Source: a virus (lineage: Duplodnaviria > Heunggongvirae > Uroviricota > Caudoviricetes). From it: a stretch of 38,640 nucleotides of DNA. The notes beneath the pieces are model-generated. The model was given only the letters and a program-made list of their open reading frames with translations, did not search any database and was not told the origin of the DNA. Position numbers and translations under genes: made by a program. How positions within the stretch are numbered: position 1 is the stretch's first letter; each line of letters opens with the position of its first letter. The DNA is taken from IMG/VR virus record IMGVR_UViG_2724679239_000008; one strand, written 5' to 3'. This document shows, one piece after another, positions 13,953 to 19,243 of this stretch.

Positions 13953-16271
13953 TTAAATCCGAAGTGATGTAACTCTTCCGGTCGGTTTGACAATAGGGAA
14001 TTGCTTAACAATAAAATAACCTCCGGCATCATTCGGGTGATCGTTGCCAGATTTTTTATCAGGCTCACCCTTATCATCCCAAACCTGTTGCTCCAGAGAT
14101 TCGGCATATACCGGACAACGCTTCACATTAACTTTATAGCGACGCTCACCATTGGCATTGCAGAACATTGCATTCATTGAGTTAACGCGATCTTTTACTG
14201 GCGGGTTCGAACTGTTTACAACAACGTTAAAACCAGCCTGTTTAAGCTGAGCAATATCCGTCGCACTTGCGTTATTTGATTTTCTGGAATCCCCGGATGC
14301 ATCAGGATAAATATAAATTTCCCTTACTTTCCGATAATCATTCCCGTCATATAACCAGAAGCGCTCTTTAATAATACGGATCATATCTGGTGTATCGTAA
14401 GCGTTAATGATTTCAGTTACTGCGCATGGAAGCCCAAAACGTAACACATGAACGACTCCAGCCATTTTTCCGACGTTAAAATCCATCCCGATATATATCG
14501 GCTCACCTGGCTGTTCCTCTTCTTCGCAATTATTCAGTTTTCGGTCAAACTGATGGTAAACAGTACCACTTGTCAGGTTAGTAAACTGTCCTCGAAGATA
14601 GGCTTTAATCAGCTCTGGAGGATATGACTCAAGGAGCGAGGGAATGTAATCTGCTGGCAAATTCTTTTCATTATCGAAAGTAGATGCCTGTACCAGACCA
14701 TACAGTGAGACCAGCTCTGTTTTTTCACGTACGGCTTTAACAAACTGCTCGTAGACAAATTTGAATCCTTCCGGCGTGGTTGTAACGTCAATACCGTTGC
14801 GAAGTCCATCAACCTTATAACGCATACGCGCAATTATCTTGCGCCACGCTGTTCTGGCTTTTTCCTTCGGCAAAATGTCCAGTTCATCCACCAGCGCATT
14901 ACCAATTTTGAAACCGACGATCGTTTGCGGCTTCTCCATCGATCTGCAGATAGTGGTTCCCCGATACTGACGTCCGTAATAAAAATGAACTTCTTTATTT
15001 CCCTCGTTAATTTTTACATTTAGCCCCCAGTCGGCAGCAACTTCTTCAACTGTGGGATAAAAAATATCGCGAATTTGTGGATATGTAGGCGCAAAATATC
15101 CCTGATTGATACCCGGATGCTCCCAAATCCCCTTACATATGCCACCACACCCAACCCATGTTTTACCGCTATTGTGATGAATCGTCCCATCAGCAGTTAC
15201 GTAGCAGTTATTATCCAATACCTGGAGGTCATAATATGGCTCGGCCTTCTGCAACAGTGTTACACTCAATATGTTGCAGGTTTCGATTAAGGAGTTTGGT
15301 TTTGACGCCTCTTGACCGTTTAATTTGTGATTTAGCACATCCAGAACGTACCGTTTCAGAAGTTGCTTCTCTGGCAGGTTGTGACCGCAGTCATGTTTAT
15401 CGTTGCATATCTCGTTATGGGTTAACGCTGAAACAACACCAGAAGCCTGTCCCTCGAGAAAGTGCGAAGGACAGAATCCTCGCTCTTGCTGATGGTCACC
15501 GTACGTCGGCAGAGATCGCGGCGGAAGTTGGTTGCACAGAAAAGCACGTTCAAAATATTCTCCGAATTCACAACGCCAACCGGCTACCCTGTGGCGCCAG
15601 AAAGGGTGAGTTGAACCCCAGCTTTCGTGGTGGTCGAATTGTTGATCTGGATGGATATGCCGTTGTTCCAGCGCCTGCTGACCATCCATATATGCGCAGA
15701 ACAGGCATGATGTTTGAACATCGTTTGATCGCTGAAAAGAAGCTGGGGCGTTATCTGCTGCCATCAGAAGTTGTTGACCATATCGACGGGCTTCATCTGC
15801 ATAACACCCCAAGTAATCTGCGAGTTTTTGATTCAAACGTGGATCACCTGCGTGCAACGATTTCGGGACGGCGGCCAAACTGGTCAGAAGAAGGTTTTGC
15901 GAAGATGCAAATACCTTCACCGATTCGTCCAGACTATCCACAGATCGATAGCTACCGTCAGCGCAAAAAACGCGGTGATGTCCGCTTGCTACAAATTCTC
16001 CTCGCTGCGTCACTACTCGGTATAGATTCGCCACACCTTTTGGGTACGCACCACCACTTAGCGAAAGCTCAAATCGATTATTCTCATCCGACCAAGATAA
16101 AACGCGCATTGGTCGAGTTATTTCCTGAATGGGTAGAATCCCATTCTCTGTAACCACAGGCGTACTTCCCCTCAGGCAACCAAAACCAGCAACATAGGCT
16201 TTAAATTTATGAGGCATAGAAAGAAATCGCGCCTGAGGCACATTAAGCGTCGGAGAGATCATCTTCATCAC
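13953..16271 (-). CDS. terminase large subunit precursor containing an intein in the Walker A P-loop
   Basis: 772-aa ORF; N-extein ends KFKAYVAGFG, C-extein starts SGKTWVG (reconstitutes a P-loop); C-extein about 400 aa with nuclease-type C-terminus; coupled to small subunit and portal. Confidence 0.85.
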   Translation of the reverse strand: MMKMISPTLNVPQARFLSMPHKFKAYVAGFGCLRGSTPVVTENGILPIQEITRPMRVLSWSDENNRFELSLSGGAYPKGVANLYRVVTQRGEFVASGHHRVFCADGSYRSVDSLDESVKVFASSQNLLLTSLAAVPKSLHAGDPRLNQKLADYLGCYADEARRYGQQLLMAADNAPASFQRSNDVQTSCLFCAYMDGQQALEQRHIHPDQQFDHHESWGSTHPFWRHRVAGWRCEFGEYFERAFLCNQLPPRSLPTYGDHQQERGFCPSHFLEGQASGVVSALTHNEICNDKHDCGHNLPEKQLLKRYVLDVLNHKLNGQEASKPNSLIETCNILSVTLLQKAEPYYDLQVLDNNCYVTADGTIHHNSGKTWVGCGGICKGIWEHPGINQGYFAPTYPQIRDIFYPTVEEVAADWGLNVKINEGNKEVHFYYGRQYRGTTICRSMEKPQTIVGFKIGNALVDELDILPKEKARTAWRKIIARMRYKVDGLRNGIDVTTTPEGFKFVYEQFVKAVREKTELVSLYGLVQASTFDNEKNLPADYIPSLLESYPPELIKAYLRGQFTNLTSGTVYHQFDRKLNNCEEEEQPGEPIYIGMDFNVGKMAGVVHVLRFGLPCAVTEIINAYDTPDMIRIIKERFWLYDGNDYRKVREIYIYPDASGDSRKSNNASATDIAQLKQAGFNVVVNSSNPPVKDRVNSMNAMFCNANGERRYKVNVKRCPVYAESLEQQVWDDKGEPDKKSGNDHPNDAGGYFIVKQFPIVKPTGRVTSLRI
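15171..16178 (-). other. intein (336 codons) within terminase large subunit
   Basis: starts with Cys (CLRGSTPVVTENGILPIQEI), block B-like GEFVASGHHRVF, ends YDLQVLDNNCYVTADGTIHHN followed by Ser; codon boundaries verified on the sequence (gca at 16176-16178 = Cys, att at 15171-15173 = Asn). Confidence 0.75.
15236..16153 (+). CDS. HNH endonuclease (HNH_3-type with N-terminal HTH segments), encoded antisense inside the intein
   Basis: plus-strand ORF; ATG 15236 preceded by GGAGG (15224-15228); translation verified: GYAVVPAPADHPYMRRTGMMFEHRLIAEKKLGRYLLPSEVVDHIDGLHLHNTPSNLRVF; the track ORF starts further upstream at ATG 15158 without RBS. Confidence 0.65.
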   Translation: MARPSATVLHSICCRFRLRSLVLTPLDRLICDLAHPERTVSEVASLAGCDRSHVYRCISRYGLTLKQHQKPVPRESAKDRILALADGHRTSAEIAAEVGCTEKHVQNILRIHNANRLPCGARKGELNPSFRGGRIVDLDGYAVVPAPADHPYMRRTGMMFEHRLIAEKKLGRYLLPSEVVDHIDGLHLHNTPSNLRVFDSNVDHLRATISGRRPNWSEEGFAKMQIPSPIRPDYPQIDSYRQRKKRGDVRLLQILLAASLLGIDSPHLLGTHHHLAKAQIDYSHPTKIKRALVELFPEWVESHSL

Positions 16272-17196
16272 TCCTCACTCTGGCATCAACCACATTAATA
16301 TTGATCGCCACAGGCTGGGGATGTTCATTACCCTCCACCGTTTCGATCTCTTTGCGCAGTTTCTGGTTTTCCATTCTGCGCCGTTCAATTTCCAGTTCCT
16401 GTAGTCGCTTATCTGCACATAATGCCCCGCCAGCGGAAAGCAAACGCAATAATTCACGCCGGGCGGCAGCTTTATTCTCCAGCAGGATCTCAACGCCGAA
16501 TTTTCCGAGCTTTGCTCCTGCATACAATTGCCGCGCATTTCCATCAAGCAAAGTGGTATCAGCCATATAAAGCTGACCTGTACCTTCTCCACCGCATTTC
16601 GGACAGTCTGGATTTGGTATGGCGCTATCAACGAAACCGAGGCCACCATATTCAGGTTCTGGTTTACCATCTTTGGATGCCTGCGCGGCAGCCCTGTCAA
16701 ATTCTGCTATATCGCGCCACTGATAGAGGTGATTCTCCCCCCAGCAATAGCGACAGTTAACACGGCGAAATTGCGCAAGCTGATTGGGATCAGCCTGCAC
16801 GATGGCCATCAACTGACTCACCAGTAAATCCAGGTCTGCGGTATAGCGTTTCTGGTAATGATTGCGAAAGTAGCTGATGGCACGAAAAACCCTGGCATTT
16901 CTAAGCATACGACTGGCATTGCTGTTTGCTGTCGCACCTTGCCCCTCGTAACCAGCCAGGCGGTATGCCTCTGTCGGCTTTTTCCCCTGAGCAACCAACA
17001 TGGCGAATTTTGCCTGCTGGTCAGAAATACCGAATTCATCGGGGCAGAACGAAATTTCTTCCGTGTCCCCCTCAATCAGGAGTGCATCGGATACAGCCTT
17101 TTTTTTCTGAGATTTTCCGTTTTGCTTTTGCGCAGTCTGCGCAGTTTTTTTTTCGCGCACTTTTTTGCGCAGTTTTGCGCACTTCTGTCTGCGCAT
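16243..17196 (-). CDS. terminase small subunit (Terminase_2-like HTH), start uncertain
   Basis: 317-aa ORF with AKFAMLVAQGKKPTEAYRLAGYEGQGATANSNASRMLRN motif, Cys-rich and coiled-coil C-terminus; overlaps large subunit start; its ATG 17196 has no Shine-Dalgarno. Confidence 0.65.
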   Translation of the reverse strand: MRRQKCAKLRKKVREKKTAQTAQKQNGKSQKKKAVSDALLIEGDTEEISFCPDEFGISDQQAKFAMLVAQGKKPTEAYRLAGYEGQGATANSNASRMLRNARVFRAISYFRNHYQKRYTADLDLLVSQLMAIVQADPNQLAQFRRVNCRYCWGENHLYQWRDIAEFDRAAAQASKDGKPEPEYGGLGFVDSAIPNPDCPKCGGEGTGQLYMADTTLLDGNARQLYAGAKLGKFGVEILLENKAAARRELLRLLSAGGALCADKRLQELEIERRRMENQKLRKEIETVEGNEHPQPVAININVVDARVRSDEDDLSDA

Positions 17197-17338
17197 TTTT
17201 CGGAGGTTTTTTGATGTAACGACGGGCTGTTGCGTAATTCAGTCCCTTTGCTTCACACCACGCCACCGGAGACACACCGGAGCGGGTGTATTCAGCAATA
17301 TATTCCTGCTGCAACGTCCCCCAGTCCGGTCTGCTCAT
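17072..17338 (-). CDS. small HTH protein, or frameshifted N-terminal part of the terminase small subunit
   Basis: 88-aa ORF with AGGA RBS, HTH-like YIAEYTRSGVSPVAWCEAKGLNYATARRYIK, lysine-rich tail; overlaps the next ORF by 125 nt in another frame. Confidence 0.4.
   Translation of the reverse strand: MSRPDWGTLQQEYIAEYTRSGVSPVAWCEAKGLNYATARRYIKKPPKNAQTEVRKTAQKSARKKNCADCAKAKRKISEKKGCIRCTPD
17129..17195. repeat. six spaced TGCGCA/CGCGCA motifs separated by T-runs (candidate pac or terminase-binding repeats)
   Basis: motif starts at 17129, 17138, 17154, 17166, 17176, 17190; T8 at 17099-17106 and T9 at 17145-17153. Confidence 0.35.
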
Positions 17339-17341
17339 CAG

Positions 17342-17593
17342 TTAGTCCTGATTTTTATCCACCCTGAGTAATGCACGCAGAGCAAAGGCATCCCCTTTTC
17401 TGGCAAGCTTAAACAATGCCGCCCGTAGCTCGGCTTCACCTTTCGCTCTGCCCTTACGGATGGACGCATAAAAATTTGTCATTGCTTCCCGATTTTCTTT
17501 CAGTCTGTTCAGATCAACATCCAGAACGTCAGCGATTTGTTGTGCAGTCATCCGGCACGCTGCCAGAGACTCGACTTTCGAATACGGAATCAT
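17342..17593 (-). CDS. hypothetical small DNA-binding protein
   Basis: 83-aa ORF with GGGGGTGA RBS, HTH-like CRMTAQQIADVLDVDLNRL. Confidence 0.45.
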   Translation of the reverse strand: MIPYSKVESLAACRMTAQQIADVLDVDLNRLKENREAMTNFYASIRKGRAKGEAELRAALFKLARKGDAFALRALLRVDKNQD

Positions 17594-17972
17594 TTATCAC
17601 CCCCATTGATATGCAGGGTGTCTTCTTCCTGTATTTTTCGTGAAGGATTTTTACTGCAGCGTTGTTCCAGGTGACCTGATGGTGAATGCGTTTATGGCTG
17701 GCGCCCATCAGTGAGATTTTTACGCACGACGGCGCATACATGACGGAGTAAAAACTTTTAACGTAGGTGCCGGAATCCAGATACAGTTCGGTCATTCCGC
17801 CGCTGTTTTTCTGCGTTTGCTTCTGCCCTAACTGGACAGCGCCAATCGTCAAAAACAATTCACCACGACGACCGAGATTCGTGTATGTATTCACATCCTC
17901 GTTAATACGCCCCATAAATGAGAATGGTCGGTCAACAGAACAAATAAAGCTGTTCATTGCTTTGCGTTTCAC
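17529..17972 (-). CDS. hypothetical protein; probable C-terminal part of a gene split at a G9 tract
   Basis: 147-aa frame starting at GTG with no RBS, continuous with upstream ORF after a 1-nt frame change. Confidence 0.4.
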   Translation of the reverse strand: MKRKAMNSFICSVDRPFSFMGRINEDVNTYTNLGRRGELFLTIGAVQLGQKQTQKNSGGMTELYLDSGTYVKSFYSVMYAPSCVKISLMGASHKRIHHQVTWNNAAVKILHEKYRKKTPCISMGVINDSVFESRVSGSVPDDCTTNR

Positions 17973-17994
17973 CCATGCAGCATGACCACCATTA

Positions 17995-18462
17995 TCACCA
18001 AGAAAGTCCCCCCCCCTGCGCCATAGCGATGGAAAGCGCAGGAATTGATTCGTAATACGCCAGCATTTCAGAAAGGATCGAGTCCAGTTTCCTTATCGGA
18101 AAATAAGCCTGGTCATAGTTGCGATCTACCCGAAACTGAAACTCGTGATAGTCGTCATCAAGCTGGATGTAGTATTTACACCCAACCTTTTTTGCCAGGC
18201 CCAGACAGGCATTCCTGGCATAAAAGATTGAACGTCGATCGCCAAAGTTGTCGGCTTCATCAAAACGACTGGCGATATCGGCTTTGGAAAACACCAGCAC
18301 CTGTTCACCAAATTCTGCTACGTACTGATGCCGGGTTTTATCTTCATCATCAACAACGATAAAAATTTTCCCGGTATAGCCAGCACGACGCAACGTCCGG
18401 TAAGTCAGAACTTTGTCCGGTCGCCCGTGAGTCAGAATAAAGGCGCAAAAATCATCACGCAT
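17995..18462 (-). CDS. hypothetical protein with DxD-like motifs; N-terminal part of split gene
   Basis: start at ATG 18462 (MRDDFCAF) with GAGGAGGA RBS; IVVDDED and QLDDDY motifs; ends three codons after a G9 run. Confidence 0.5.
   Translation of the reverse strand: MRDDFCAFILTHGRPDKVLTYRTLRRAGYTGKIFIVVDDEDKTRHQYVAEFGEQVLVFSKADIASRFDEADNFGDRRSIFYARNACLGLAKKVGCKYYIQLDDDYHEFQFRVDRNYDQAYFPIRKLDSILSEMLAYYESIPALSIAMAQGGGLSW
18008..18016. repeat. homopolymer tract (C9 on plus, G9 in coding sense)
   Basis: counted directly in sequence; lies at the junction of the two ORF fragments. Confidence 0.9.
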
Positions 18463-18463
18463 A

Positions 18464-19243
18464 TTACTCCTCCTCGCCATGCATGATCTCCACCATGCGC
18501 TGCGTCATCCTGACAAACCCATTTTCAATTGCCTGCTGATAATCAATGATCACCAGAGCCGATTCCTCAAAAAAGCTCTGAATTTCAGCGGGGGCGTGAG
18601 CGTAATAGTCCGCGATTCTGCTGAAATTAAACACCGTGTGACGTTCTGCCGCGCACAGAAGGAATTTCTCAATATCAGGATCAAGGGACACCGAACGTAT
18701 CCGGCTGATCAGCTCCTGAGTTTTCGTATCGTCGTACAGTTCACAGATATCCGGTTTATCGCCTGACGGCTCATAAACAGGCGTATCAATTTTCGTCGTA
18801 TACGGCTCCTCCTCATTTCCTGTACCAGGCAAAATATCCGTCAACAGTTCATCAATTTCTGTCGGGCTGAAGCCTGTCAGGGAGACATCAAAATCAGCAT
18901 TAATTAGGTCCGACAGCTCCATCCGTAACAGATCTTCATCCCAGCCAGCATTCATCGGCAGGCGATTATCTGCCAGACGGTACGCCTTTTTCTGATCATC
19001 CGTCAGACCAGACAGAACGATGACCGGAACGAAATCCATTTTGAGCACTTCAGCCGCCATAACGCGACCGTGACCCGCAATAACTTCGCCCTTTTCATCA
19101 ATCAGCACCGGATTAGTCCAGCCAAATTGCTTAATGCTTTCTACCAGTTGCGTCACCTGCTCAGGGCTGTGTGTCCTGGCATTGTGTGCATACAGAGACA
19201 GCTCTTGTAACGGGCGATAGACGATCTTCAATTTCTCGCTCAT
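18464..19243 (-). CDS. ParB-like nuclease domain protein
   Basis: 259-aa ORF with ParB N-terminal-type motifs (YAHNARTH, VIAGHGRVMAA); GAGG RBS. Confidence 0.7.
   Translation of the reverse strand: MSEKLKIVYRPLQELSLYAHNARTHSPEQVTQLVESIKQFGWTNPVLIDEKGEVIAGHGRVMAAEVLKMDFVPVIVLSGLTDDQKKAYRLADNRLPMNAGWDEDLLRMELSDLINADFDVSLTGFSPTEIDELLTDILPGTGNEEEPYTTKIDTPVYEPSGDKPDICELYDDTKTQELISRIRSVSLDPDIEKFLLCAAERHTVFNFSRIADYYAHAPAEIQSFFEESALVIIDYQQAIENGFVRMTQRMVEIMHGEEE

What the first reader, a model, noticed from the sequence alone, without database searches (positions are those of the whole stretch)
17072..17200. Terminase small-subunit start region: two open lysine-rich frames over 125 nt, A8/A9 runs and periodic TGCGCA repeats
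The 317-codon TerS frame begins at an ATG (17196) with no Shine-Dalgarno, while the upstream 88-codon ORF (with RBS and an HTH) runs through the same 125 nt in another frame; both frames encode Lys-rich peptide here. The region contains A/T homopolymers (T8 at 17099-17106, T9 at 17145-17153 on plus) and six TGCGCA/CGCGCA motifs spaced 9 to 16 bp apart. Runs of nine A or T are known sites of transcriptional slippage in bacteria, so a fraction of transcripts could fuse the two frames; the two frames differ by +1, so standard -1 ribosomal slippage would not join them. Pac sites of headful phages often lie inside the small terminase gene as short spaced repeats, and the TGCGCA array fits that description.
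Basis: partly seen in the sequence, partly recalled or inferred. Interest (0 to 1): 0.5.

Follow-up and report, generated by a model that had tools for sequence, protein, structure and literature searches.

The report
Frameshifted terminase gene with conserved hexamer array
The two overlapping reading frames are one prophage small-terminase gene broken by a single extra A in a run of eight, which is ordinary, but the TGCGCA repeats beside the break are conserved as DNA across prophages of about 30 bacterial species and are a good candidate for the site where this terminase recognises phage DNA for packaging.

Summary
The two frames are halves of one terS gene. Deleting one A from the A9 run gives a 364-aa protein identical to an annotated Escherichia albertii small terminase. 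A phage TerS profile covers that protein end to end.

Close relatives carry A8 in frame: 191 of 194 E. coli complete genomes with this allele, 22 of 22 IMG/VR contigs, and the nearest relative at 99.6% identity. More distant alleles have no long run. So A9 is a non-programmed +1 indel, either a mutation or an assembly error. The neighbouring gene has the same defect at a G9 run. Transcriptional slippage could leak some full-length TerS, but nothing suggests it is selected.

The TGCGCA array is the more interesting part. Every terS gene that encodes the same N-terminal helix-turn-helix (31 loci from one-genome-per-species contigs, about 30 species) carries 3-6 copies at gene nt 138-205. The copies sit in three codon phases and are eight times more frequent than synonymous-codon resampling allows. 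Genes with other N-terminal domains lack the motif, and some carry different repeats in the same place.

The array is therefore under selection as DNA or RNA. Its most likely role is the TerS recognition (pac) site, but that role is inferred and was not tested.

The parts
16243..17338 (-). terS (small terminase) gene. It would encode 364 aa with an A8 run. Here an extra A splits it into an 88-codon ORF and a 317-codon ORF.
   Evidence: Removing one A gives a protein identical to WP_119047799.1. phrog_51 TerS covers it at 1-364 against profile 1-261/261, E 4.5e-74. Homologues have a single 1095-nt ORF.
17072..17338 (-). 5' fragment ORF (88 aa). It holds the N-terminal HTH and part of the linker, then 24 out-of-frame codons and a stop.
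   Evidence: It matches positions 1-77 of phrog_51, E 1.4e-26. ORF listed.
16243..17196 (-). 3' fragment ORF (317 aa) holding the Terminase_2 core. Its ATG at 17196 is an out-of-frame triplet with no Shine-Dalgarno sequence, not a real start.
   Evidence: Pfam Terminase_2 at aa 75-274, E 6.5e-7. Sequence read.
17207..17338 (-). Coding region of the extra N-terminal three-helix (HTH-like) domain, aa 1-44, with the invariant motif SP..WCE..GLNYATARRYIKK.
   Evidence: Alignment A3. AF2 helices at aa 6-20, 24-31 and 35-38, block-mean pLDDT 78-87. The weak Foldseek matches are nearly all HTH domains.
17145..17153 (-). A9 run on the coding strand (T9 on plus). This is the frameshift site, one A longer than the in-frame A8.
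   Evidence: Alignments with L006, L017, L010 and L025. Run-length counts.
17099..17106 (-). Second A8 run in the Lys-rich linker. It is in frame here and shortened to A7, which breaks the frame, in two IMG/VR relatives.
   Evidence: L107, L108.
17129..17195 (.). Array of five TGCGCA and one TGCGCG (CGCGCA on plus). It is the candidate TerS recognition (pac) array.
   Evidence: for positions. Conserved at gene nt 138-205 in 31 species-level loci, about 30 species. Eight-fold above the synonymous-codon null and present in three codon phases. Copy number varies by 9-nt units.
17346..17349 (-). Shine-Dalgarno AGGA serving the true terS start at 17338.
   Evidence: Read directly from the sequence.
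13953..16271 (-). terL (large terminase), overlapping the terS stop. Included as context. It carries an intein (see the passing notes).
   Evidence: Pfam Terminase_6N and Terminase_6C. Intein boundaries.

Best explanation
This is the 5' third of a prophage small-terminase gene (terS) from an Escherichia albertii-type lambdoid prophage.

The intact gene encodes:
- a 44-aa N-terminal three-helix (HTH-like) domain;
- a disordered, Lys-rich linker of about 50 aa;
- a Terminase_2 core.

In this assembly one extra A has turned the A8 tract in the linker into A9. That shifts the frame by +1 and splits the gene into an 88-codon ORF and a 317-codon ORF. The change is a non-programmed homopolymer indel, caused either by replication slippage or by an assembly error.

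RNA polymerase slippage on the A9 run, or ribosome sliding on it, could restore the frame in a minority of products. That would be incidental leakiness, not a conserved mechanism.

The TGCGCA hexamers written into the linker codons are a separate feature and are under selection at the nucleic-acid level. The most likely mechanism is that the N-terminal HTH domains of the TerS oligomer bind this array on concatemeric phage DNA. That would mark the pac region where TerL makes the first cut of a headful packaging series.

Shown: the gene identity, the +1 indel, its rarity, and conservation of the array beyond what the protein sequence requires.
Inferred: TerS binding, pac function and headful packaging.
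For: The frameshift:
- The fused protein equals WP_119047799.1 exactly. Its 90%-identity cluster has 1423 members, and nearly all those listed are 364 aa.
- phrog_51 covers the fused protein end to end. The 88-aa ORF matches the first 77 positions of that profile.
- Related phages and E. coli prophages have one 1095-nt ORF.
- A8 versus A9 is 191 to 3 in E. coli complete genomes with this allele. The three A9 copies are annotated 'frameshifted' by PGAP.
- All 22 IMG/VR contigs with this allele have A8.
- The nearest relative, L017 (99.58% over 6.2 kb), differs by only two indels. They are this A run and a C9 run in the next gene.
- Other alleles read AGAAAAAAT at this position.
- Other A-runs of the same linker are frameshifted in L075, L107 and L108, and in dozens of truncated database proteins with varied junctions.

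The array:
- There are 3-6 TGCGCA at gene nt 138-205 in all 31 species-level terS genes with this HTH. There are none in genes with other N-terminal domains.
- I counted 144 motifs, against a synonymous-codon null with mean 17.7 and maximum 33.
- The motifs fall in three codon phases: 106, 28 and 10.
- In the linker, the Ala codon of A-[QH] dipeptides is GCG in 109 of 113 cases and follows a T in 109 of 113.
- Third-position identity in the adjacent HTH region is only 0.59.
- 73 of the first 120 triple-TGCGCA clusters found in IMG/VR lie directly 3' of this HTH.
- The ParB, TAGT and orf83 neighbours are absent from 27 of the 31 loci.
- Yersinia-type genes, whose helix reads AKRYIKI instead of ARRYIKK, carry TGCGAAT x4 instead. 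Dinucleotide shuffles reached that count 0-2 times in 1000.

Background: pac sites lie inside terS in P22, and SPP1 TerS contacts multiple sites (review PMC9611059).
Against: - No experimental data were available: no packaging ends, no TerS-DNA binding, no transcript data.
- Raw reads were not available, so a real mutation cannot be told apart from an assembly error.
- The array and the HTH are only about 10-70 nt apart. They would be inherited together even without a functional link.
- The motif never varies within the HTH type, so there is no fine-scale covariation to test.
- The hexamer is palindromic, so adjacent copies also form RNA hairpins. Selection at the RNA level is therefore not excluded.
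- Repeats in some of the other HTH classes are not significant against shuffles (L110 and L121).
- Hexamer spacing is not conserved between subfamilies and does not follow the helical repeat.
- TerL gave no significant sequence match to any solved terminase, so headful packaging rests only on family resemblance.
Confidence: 0.7

Rival explanations
1. Programmed transcriptional slippage. The gene is deliberately kept in two frames. RNA polymerase slippage on the A9 run makes a regulated fraction of full-length TerS alongside an 88-aa HTH peptide.
For: - An A9 run is a known slippage length (Baranov 2005, PMC1088944). An A11 tract rescues tssM1 at about 20% (PMC4256274).
- A predicted hairpin ends 1-2 nt 5' of the run and another starts 1 nt 3' of it.
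- One deleted A would restore the frame exactly.
Against: - The arrangement is not conserved. A8 in frame occurs in 191 of 194 E. coli genomes and 22 of 22 IMG/VR contigs.
- The nearest relative has A8.
- Other alleles have AGAAAAAAT, and Klebsiella-type genes have no run at all.
- Database frameshifts hit several different runs with different junctions.
- The neighbouring gene has an equivalent +1 at a G9 run.
Confidence: 0.04
2. Assembly or sequencing artefact. The real genome has A8, and G8 in the next gene. The extra bases are homopolymer miscalls in the draft assembly GCA_001515005.1.
For: - Two +1 errors sit within 900 bp, both in 9-nt homopolymers. They are the only indels against a 99.6%-identical relative.
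- The exact 317-aa ORF product is on record from one contig only.
- Many truncated database versions carry multiple frameshifts in the same linker, which is typical of noisy assemblies.
Against: - The same A9 allele is present in three different E. coli complete genomes.
- Some truncated variants recur on 62-73 contigs, so real frameshift alleles of this linker do exist.
- If the assembly is one of the Illumina MiSeq drafts described in PMC4700944 (the link to this accession was not confirmed), miscalls at 8-9-nt runs would be uncommon.
Confidence: 0.3
3. The TGCGCA array is only a by-product of a repeated peptide ([TS]-A-Q-K) in a low-complexity linker that grows and shrinks by 9-nt duplications. 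It has no function as DNA.
For: - Most copies (106 of 144) sit in one codon phase and encode x-Ala-Gln.
- L025 has one extra ACTGCGCAG unit.
- Tandem Repeats Finder reports 10-24-nt periods in the region.
Against: - 38 of 144 copies are in the other two phases and encode [LVM]-R-x or C-A-x.
- The degenerate positions of the motif are 96% fixed, while third positions next door are 59% identical.
- The count is eight-fold above the synonymous-codon null.
- The motif is kept between genes whose proteins are only 38-45% identical.
Confidence: 0.08
4. The hexamers act as RNA or as a transcription signal. The palindromes would form hairpins that control terS mRNA stability or translation. On the other strand, hairpin plus T9 would terminate antisense transcription.
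For: - The RNA fold gives three hairpins from adjacent hexamer pairs, with z = -3.0 against shuffles.
- The plus-strand hairpin 17128-17144 followed by T9 scores as terminator-like.
Against: - Hairpins follow automatically from any pair of palindromic hexamers.
- Spacing, and therefore loop sizes and pairing partners, differs between subfamilies.
- The T/A run that completes the terminator is absent from most homologues.
- There is no Rfam match.
Confidence: 0.12
5. The array binds a different protein, such as a neighbouring ParB-like protein, the 83-aa upstream ORF product or a host regulator, rather than TerS.
For: - A ParB_N protein and a small HTH-like ORF lie just upstream in this window.
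- Other phages have unrelated operator-like TGCGCA clusters in intergenic DNA.
Against: ParB, TAGT and orf83 homologues are absent from the 1.5-kb flanks of 27 of the 31 loci that carry the array. The only constant partner is the terS N-terminal domain.
Confidence: 0.06

Closest known systems
P22 pac site inside gene 3 (terS)
   Same: A cis-acting packaging recognition sequence embedded in the coding sequence of the small terminase gene of a headful phage (review PMC9611059).
   Different: P22 uses one asymmetric 22-bp sequence. Here there are 3-6 copies of a 6-bp palindrome, placed in a disordered linker immediately after an extra N-terminal HTH. TerS here belongs to the Terminase_2/phrog_51 family, not the P22 gp3 family.
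P1 pac site (TGATCA/G hexamers, 4 + 3 copies, inside pacA). From my own knowledge, not checked here.
   Same: Repeated near-palindromic hexamers of the form TG..CA inside the small-terminase gene. The Klebsiella-type subfamily even shows a bipartite layout, with six copies at about nt 138-196 and two or three at about nt 348-398.
   Different: The P1 hexamers contain Dam sites and packaging is controlled by methylation. TGCGCA has no GATC. There is no homology to PacA.
SPP1/SF6 TerS (Terminase_2 family) with pacL/pacR boxes
   Same: Same Pfam family for the core. Multiple TerS contact points flank the cut site.
   Different: The SPP1 sites lie largely upstream of and at the start of gene 1, and specific binding is weak or disputed in vitro. 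This TerS has an additional N-terminal HTH and a zinc-ribbon-like CxxC...CxxC insertion.
Rescue of frameshift mutations in A/T runs by transcriptional slippage (E. coli genes in Baranov 2005; C. rodentium tssM1, A11; Shigella mxiE; T. thermophilus dnaX, A9)
   Same: An A9 run sits exactly at the junction of two frames of one gene. Losing one templated A in the mRNA would restore the ORF.
   Different: In mxiE, dnaX and tssM1 the arrangement is conserved or was shown to be needed. Here the out-of-frame state is a rare variant of an in-frame A8.
PGAP-annotated 'terminase small subunit, frameshifted' pseudogenes in E. coli NCTC11129, NCTC11476 and E29
   Same: The same gene with the same G-A9-C run and the same split.
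   Different: The sequences are 96% identical and come from a different host species. The window also carries a terL intein that those loci lack.

Membership tests
Terminase small subunit (PHROG phrog_51 / Pfam Terminase_2) | Full-length match to the family profile | tested here: met
   The fused protein matches at 1-364 against profile 1-261/261, E 4.5e-74. The 88-aa ORF matches profile positions 1-77. Terminase_2 scores E 6.5e-7, above the gathering cut-off.
Terminase small subunit (PHROG phrog_51 / Pfam Terminase_2) | Gene lies immediately upstream of terL and overlaps it | tested here: met
   terS ends at 16243 and terL starts at 16271 on the same strand. Homologues have the same layout.
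Programmed transcriptional-slippage recoding site | Run of 9 or more A/T at the junction of two overlapping frames that a 1-nt change would fuse | tested here: met
   A9 at 17145-17153. Removing one A gives an uninterrupted 364-aa ORF.
Programmed transcriptional-slippage recoding site | The out-of-frame arrangement and the run are conserved among homologues | tested here: not met
   A8 in frame in 191 of 194 E. coli genomes, in 22 of 22 IMG/VR contigs and in the nearest relatives. The run is interrupted or absent in other alleles.
Programmed transcriptional-slippage recoding site | Heterogeneous A-run lengths in transcripts and a trans-frame protein | not testable with these tools
   Needs RNA sequencing with a synthetic-RNA control, and mass spectrometry.
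Homopolymer frameshift (pseudogene or assembly error) | Close relatives have the intact gene and differ by one base in the homopolymer | tested here: met
   L017, L010, L025 and L006. The corrected protein is identical to WP_119047799.1.
Homopolymer frameshift (pseudogene or assembly error) | Sporadic distribution and varied junctions | tested here: met
   Three E. coli genomes share this one. L075, L107 and L108 are shifted at other runs. Dozens of truncated proteins have different junctions.
Homopolymer frameshift (pseudogene or assembly error) | Run length confirmed in raw reads | not testable with these tools
   No read data were accessible.
pac site of a headful-packaging phage | Located in or next to terS | tested here: met
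   The array lies at gene nt 144-210 of terS.
pac site of a headful-packaging phage | Sequence conserved as DNA beyond coding requirements | tested here: met
   Codon-resampling test, three codon phases, and fixed degenerate positions.
pac site of a headful-packaging phage | Specificity changes together with the TerS DNA-binding domain | tested here: inconclusive
   TGCGCA occurs only with the ARRYIKK-type HTH. AKRYIKI-type genes have TGCGAAT. Other N-terminal domains have GTGGAAAC or CGAACCA repeats, but some classes are not significant against shuffles, and array and HTH are physically adjacent.
pac site of a headful-packaging phage | TerS binds it, and the first packaging cut and the packaging series start nearby | not testable with these tools
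   Needs EMSA or footprinting, and end mapping of virion DNA.
pac site of a headful-packaging phage | The phage packages by the headful mechanism | not tested
   Inferred only from the Terminase_2 family and from relatives such as the generalized transducing phage F116 (the F116 property is from my own knowledge). TerL gave no informative PDB sequence match.

The most novel reading that the evidence does not exclude
The N-terminal HTH of this TerS family and the hexamer array that follows it may form a self-contained, portable packaging-specificity module.

On this reading the protein recognises an array of 6-bp palindromes written, in three reading phases, into the codons of its own disordered Lys-rich linker. 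Variants of the HTH carry different repeats in the same place: TGCGAAT, GTGGAAAC and CGAACCA.

If this is right, the family would give a TerS-pac pair with a simple, multi-copy, perfectly conserved site. Sequence-specific TerS-DNA recognition could then be measured directly. That has been hard to do for P22, Sf6 and SPP1.
Probability: 0.5. Interest if true: 0.6.

Novelty: new member of a known kind. Interest (0 to 1): 0.4.

Why it matters
The frameshift matters mainly for annotation. The 88-aa and 317-aa ORFs should be merged as one frameshifted terS gene. The prophage should be treated as possibly unable to package, or as mis-assembled.

The A-rich linker is a recurrent indel hot spot across public assemblies. 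The same mis-annotation will therefore recur.

The hexamer array matters more. How small terminases recognise pac DNA is still unclear and disputed (review PMC9611059). Here a whole family of enterobacterial prophages shows a short motif in 3-6 copies, directly beside a dedicated HTH, with clear evidence of selection on the DNA.

That makes a testable prediction for binding, packaging and transduction experiments. It could also help predict packaging specificity, and therefore transduction potential, for prophages of Escherichia, Klebsiella, Enterobacter, Citrobacter and their relatives.

Tried and rejected
- **Programmed slippage or recoding.** Rejected on conservation.
- **ATG 17196 as a true TerS start.** Rejected: there is no Shine-Dalgarno sequence, and homologues read straight through from the upstream ATG.
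- **Peptide-repeat-only explanation of the array.** Rejected by codon resampling and the three codon phases.
- **A parS-like site for the neighbouring ParB-like protein, or a site for orf83.** Rejected because these neighbours are absent from 27 of the 31 array-bearing loci.
- **Known RNA element.** No Rfam match.
- **Structural identification of the N-terminal domain.** The AF2 model is moderately confident. Foldseek against the PDB found nothing significant, only weak HTH-type matches.
- **Sequence search of TerS and the spliced TerL against the PDB.** No informative hits.
- **Literature search for TGCGCA with terminase or pac.** Nothing found.
- **Packaging mode of related Yersinia phages.** The paper reports no termini.
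- **Linking accession BBWA01 to the E. albertii MiSeq draft study.** Not confirmed in the text.
- **The same array detached from terS, for example in satellites.** None was seen among the first 120 triple-TGCGCA clusters in IMG/VR. The non-terS clusters were unrelated tandem repeats or operator-like arrays.
- **dN/dS on the intein and antisense ORF.** Too few substitutions to judge.
- **Fetching DNA for the exact in-frame E. albertii protein.** The equivalent locus was obtained from IMG/VR instead (L017 and L035).
Full report
**1. Observation**

All genes discussed here are on the minus strand. Searches show two ORFs:
- an 88-codon ORF at 17338..17072;
- a 317-codon ORF at 17196..16243.

They overlap by 125 nt. 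The second frame is +1 relative to the first. Both frames are Lys-rich across the overlap.

The ATG at 17196 has no Shine-Dalgarno sequence. The ATG at 17338 has AGGA seven bases upstream and lies 3 nt after the stop of the preceding ORF.

T8 (17099-17106) and T9 (17145-17153) on the plus strand are confirmed. Six YGCGCA motifs start at 17129, 17138, 17154, 17166, 17176 and 17190. Five are the palindrome TGCGCA.

The window has only 24 TGCGCA sites in 38.6 kb. Five within 70 nt was never reached in 20,000 random placements.

**2. The two ORFs are one terS gene**

- Pfam finds Terminase_2 in the 317-aa ORF.
- The PHROG family phrog_51 (small terminase) matches the 88-aa ORF over its first 77 profile positions (E 1.4e-26).
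- The same profile covers the protein obtained by removing one A from end to end (E 4.5e-74).
- That corrected 364-aa protein is identical, residue for residue, to WP_119047799.1, annotated as an Escherichia albertii terminase small subunit. It belongs to a 90%-identity cluster of 1423 members. Nearly all the members listed are 364 aa.
- The 317-aa product is on record from a single 127-kb contig, BBWA01000011.1 of GCA_001515005.1. That contig is evidently the source of the window.
- Related phages (vB_EcoS-473R12, SPF_0923) and E. coli prophages have one 1095-nt terS ORF. It starts at the ATG equivalent to 17338.

**3. The A9 run is a +1 indel, not a recoding site**

- The closest E. coli allele reads G-A8-C in frame. 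Three complete genomes (NCTC11129, NCTC11476, E29) read G-A9-C. PGAP annotates all three as 'terminase small subunit, frameshifted'.
- A 79-nt probe found 194 genomes with this allele. Three matched the A9 probe exactly, and the other 191 fell in the 95-99% identity band. All 27 of those listed matched over 78 nt, which means A8.
- In IMG/VR, all 22 contigs with this allele have A8.
- The nearest relative, L017, is 99.58% identical over 6.2 kb. It differs from the window by exactly two indels: T9 versus T8 at 17145, and C9 versus CTCCCCCC at 18008.
- The 92%-identity allele reads AGAAAAAAT. Klebsiella-type genes have no run at all.
- Among 79 IMG/VR relatives, three others are frameshifted, and at different A-runs of the same linker (L075, L107, L108).
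- A protein search with the 88-aa ORF returned dozens of truncated N-terminal fragments with many different junctions, sometimes several in one sequence. Most are on 1-5 contigs, and a few are on 62-73 contigs.
- The adjacent TAGT/GREB1-like gene is split in the same way by a G9 run. Homologues have eight bases there and a single 310-aa ORF.

Together these results point to non-programmed homopolymer indels in a hypermutable, or error-prone, Lys-rich linker. I cannot tell a real mutation from an assembly error without the reads.

Transcriptional slippage at A9 is well documented and could restore the frame in a fraction of transcripts. A predicted hairpin ends 1-2 nt before the run. From my own knowledge, that layout resembles stem-loop-stimulated slippage. 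Nothing indicates that such leakiness is selected here.

**4. The TGCGCA array is conserved as DNA**

In the corrected frame the motifs read N-A-Q, V-R-K, T-A-Q, S-A-R, T-A-Q and T-A-Q. L025 has one extra 9-nt ACTGCGCAG unit. So the array partly behaves as a coding repeat.

It is also kept in genes whose proteins are only 38-45% identical. A scan of one genome per species found 31 terS genes, from about 30 species, that encode the same N-terminal domain (M[AS][KR]PDWG...WCEAQGLNYATARRYIKK). The genera include:
- Shigella, Escherichia, Superficieibacter, Serratia and Buttiauxella;
- Yokenella, Citrobacter, Leclercia, Raoultella and Providencia;
- Enterobacter, Lelliottia and Pantoea.

All 31 carry 3-6 TGCGCA at gene nt 138-205, with few copies elsewhere in the 4-kb loci.

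Evidence that this is more than the protein sequence requires:
- Resampling synonymous codons gives a mean of 17.7 motifs across the set (maximum 33 in 2000 trials), against 144 observed.
- The motif occurs in all three codon phases (106, 28 and 10 copies). It encodes x-A-Q/H, [LVM]-R-x or C-A-x.
- In the linker, the Ala codon of A-[QH] dipeptides is GCG in 109 of 113 cases and is preceded by T in 109 of 113. Elsewhere in the genes the figures are 89 of 130 and 63 of 130.
- Third-position identity in the adjacent HTH region is only 0.59.
- In IMG/VR, 73 of the first 120 triple-TGCGCA clusters lie directly 3' of this HTH, and three more are cut by contig ends.

**5. Association with the N-terminal domain**

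Genes with other N-terminal domains lack TGCGCA. Some carry their own repeats in the same linker:

| N-terminal type | Repeat | Significance against shuffles |
|---|---|---|
| Yersinia type, helix AKRYIKI instead of ARRYIKK | TGCGAAT x4 | 0-2 of 1000 shuffles reach it |
| L120, L123, L004 | GTGGAAAC / GTTTCCAC | 6-mer TGGAAA x4 reached by 5-12 of 1000 shuffles; 7-mers not significant |
| L147, L148 | CGAACCA x3 | 9 of 1000 shuffles reach it |
| L110, L121 | A-rich repeats | not significant |

The ParB-like, TAGT and orf83 genes that lie upstream in this window are absent from 27 of the 31 array-bearing loci. The only constant partner of the array is the terS N-terminal domain.

AlphaFold2 predicts that domain as three helices at aa 6-38, with block-mean pLDDT of 78-87, followed by a disordered tail. 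Foldseek found no significant PDB match. The weak matches are almost all HTH DNA-binding domains.

**6. Mechanism**

The best-supported reading is that the N-terminal HTH domains of the TerS oligomer bind the hexamer array on concatemeric DNA. That would define the pac region where TerL makes the first cut. Comparable cases are the pac site inside P22 gene 3 and the multi-site contacts of SPP1 TerS. From my own knowledge, the TGATCA/G hexamers inside P1 pacA are another comparable case.

Steps shown: gene identity, domain layout, DNA-level conservation of the array, and its exclusive association with one HTH type.
Steps inferred: binding by TerS, the pac function, and headful packaging.

Rival readings:
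- RNA hairpins or an antisense terminator. Hairpins follow automatically from palindromes. Spacing and the T-run are not conserved.
- A site for another protein. This is weakened.
- A pure peptide repeat. This is rejected.

**7. Comparison and novelty**

The frameshift is ordinary and of a known kind. The identical defect is already flagged in E. coli annotations.

The array is a new member of a known kind, namely a pac-like recognition site inside terS. I found no paper that links TGCGCA to terminase or pac, and there is no Rfam family for it.

Its interest lies in being simple, multi-copy and sharply conserved, in a field where specific TerS-pac binding has been hard to demonstrate.

**8. 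Verdict**

| Item | Result |
|---|---|
| Observation | confirmed |
| Interest | 0.4 |
| Most novel reading not excluded | a portable HTH-plus-array packaging-specificity module |
| Its probability | about 0.5 |
| Interest if true | 0.6 |

Noticed in passing
window 13953-16271 (-); intein 15171-16178; antisense ORF 15302-16153 (+): terL encodes 772 aa, against 433 aa in homologues. A 336-aa intein-like insertion (C1 ... HN|S+1) splits the Walker A loop (GFG|SGKT). The sense frame gives only weak intein-model hits and no endonuclease domain. The opposite strand carries a near-full-length HNH endonuclease ORF (phrog_10730, E 4e-49, plus HTH and HNH_3 Pfam hits). That ORF overlaps the coding region of the intein's N-terminal splicing block. 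Both strands are open for about 1 kb. L025, L010 and L017 carry the same element.
   Followed up: partly
window 18008-18016 (C9 on plus), gene 17529-18480 (-): The TAGT/GREB1-like glycosyltransferase gene next to terS is split into 161-aa and 147-aa ORFs by a G9 run. Relatives have eight bases there (GGGCGGGG, GGGGGGAG or G8) and a single 310-aa ORF. This is the second +1 homopolymer frameshift within 900 bp in this assembly.
   Followed up: yes
window 17342-17593 (-): The 83-aa ORF directly upstream of terS, separated from the terS ATG by only 3 nt, matches part of a different small-terminase family (phrog_309 positions 145-215 of 319, E 8e-22). It is absent from most loci that carry the TGCGCA array.
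   Followed up: partly
window 17128-17153 (+): On the strand antisense to terS, hexamers 1 and 2 form a 7-bp hairpin followed by T9. It scores as an intrinsic-terminator-like site. This is probably a by-product of the palindromes and the A-run, because the run is missing in most homologues.
   Followed up: partly
L127, L124, L137, L031 and similar loci, terS nt ~348-398: The Klebsiella/Enterobacter-type subfamily has a second cluster of two or three TGCGCA about 150 nt downstream of the first. It lies in two codon phases inside the Terminase_2 HTH region (V-A-Q-A-I-A-Q...I-V-R-T). That gives a bipartite layout. The window's subfamily lacks it.
   Followed up: partly
L113, L114 (IMG/VR), terS nt 155-163: These Yersinia-type terS genes carry an A9 run that is in frame (347-aa ORF intact). 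Long A-runs are therefore tolerated in this linker without disrupting the gene.
   Followed up: no
L003 (phage Rac-SA53) 1412-2440; L004 (Actinobacillus phage vB_Apl-pPE4) 1208-2299: In Rac-SA53, terS is annotated 'gpOterS; fusion of two genes by deletion'. It keeps only two of the hexamers. A phage recorded from Actinobacillus shares 86% nucleotide identity with the 3' part of this enterobacterial terS but has a different N-terminal domain, which shows modular exchange of the 5' specificity part.
   Followed up: no
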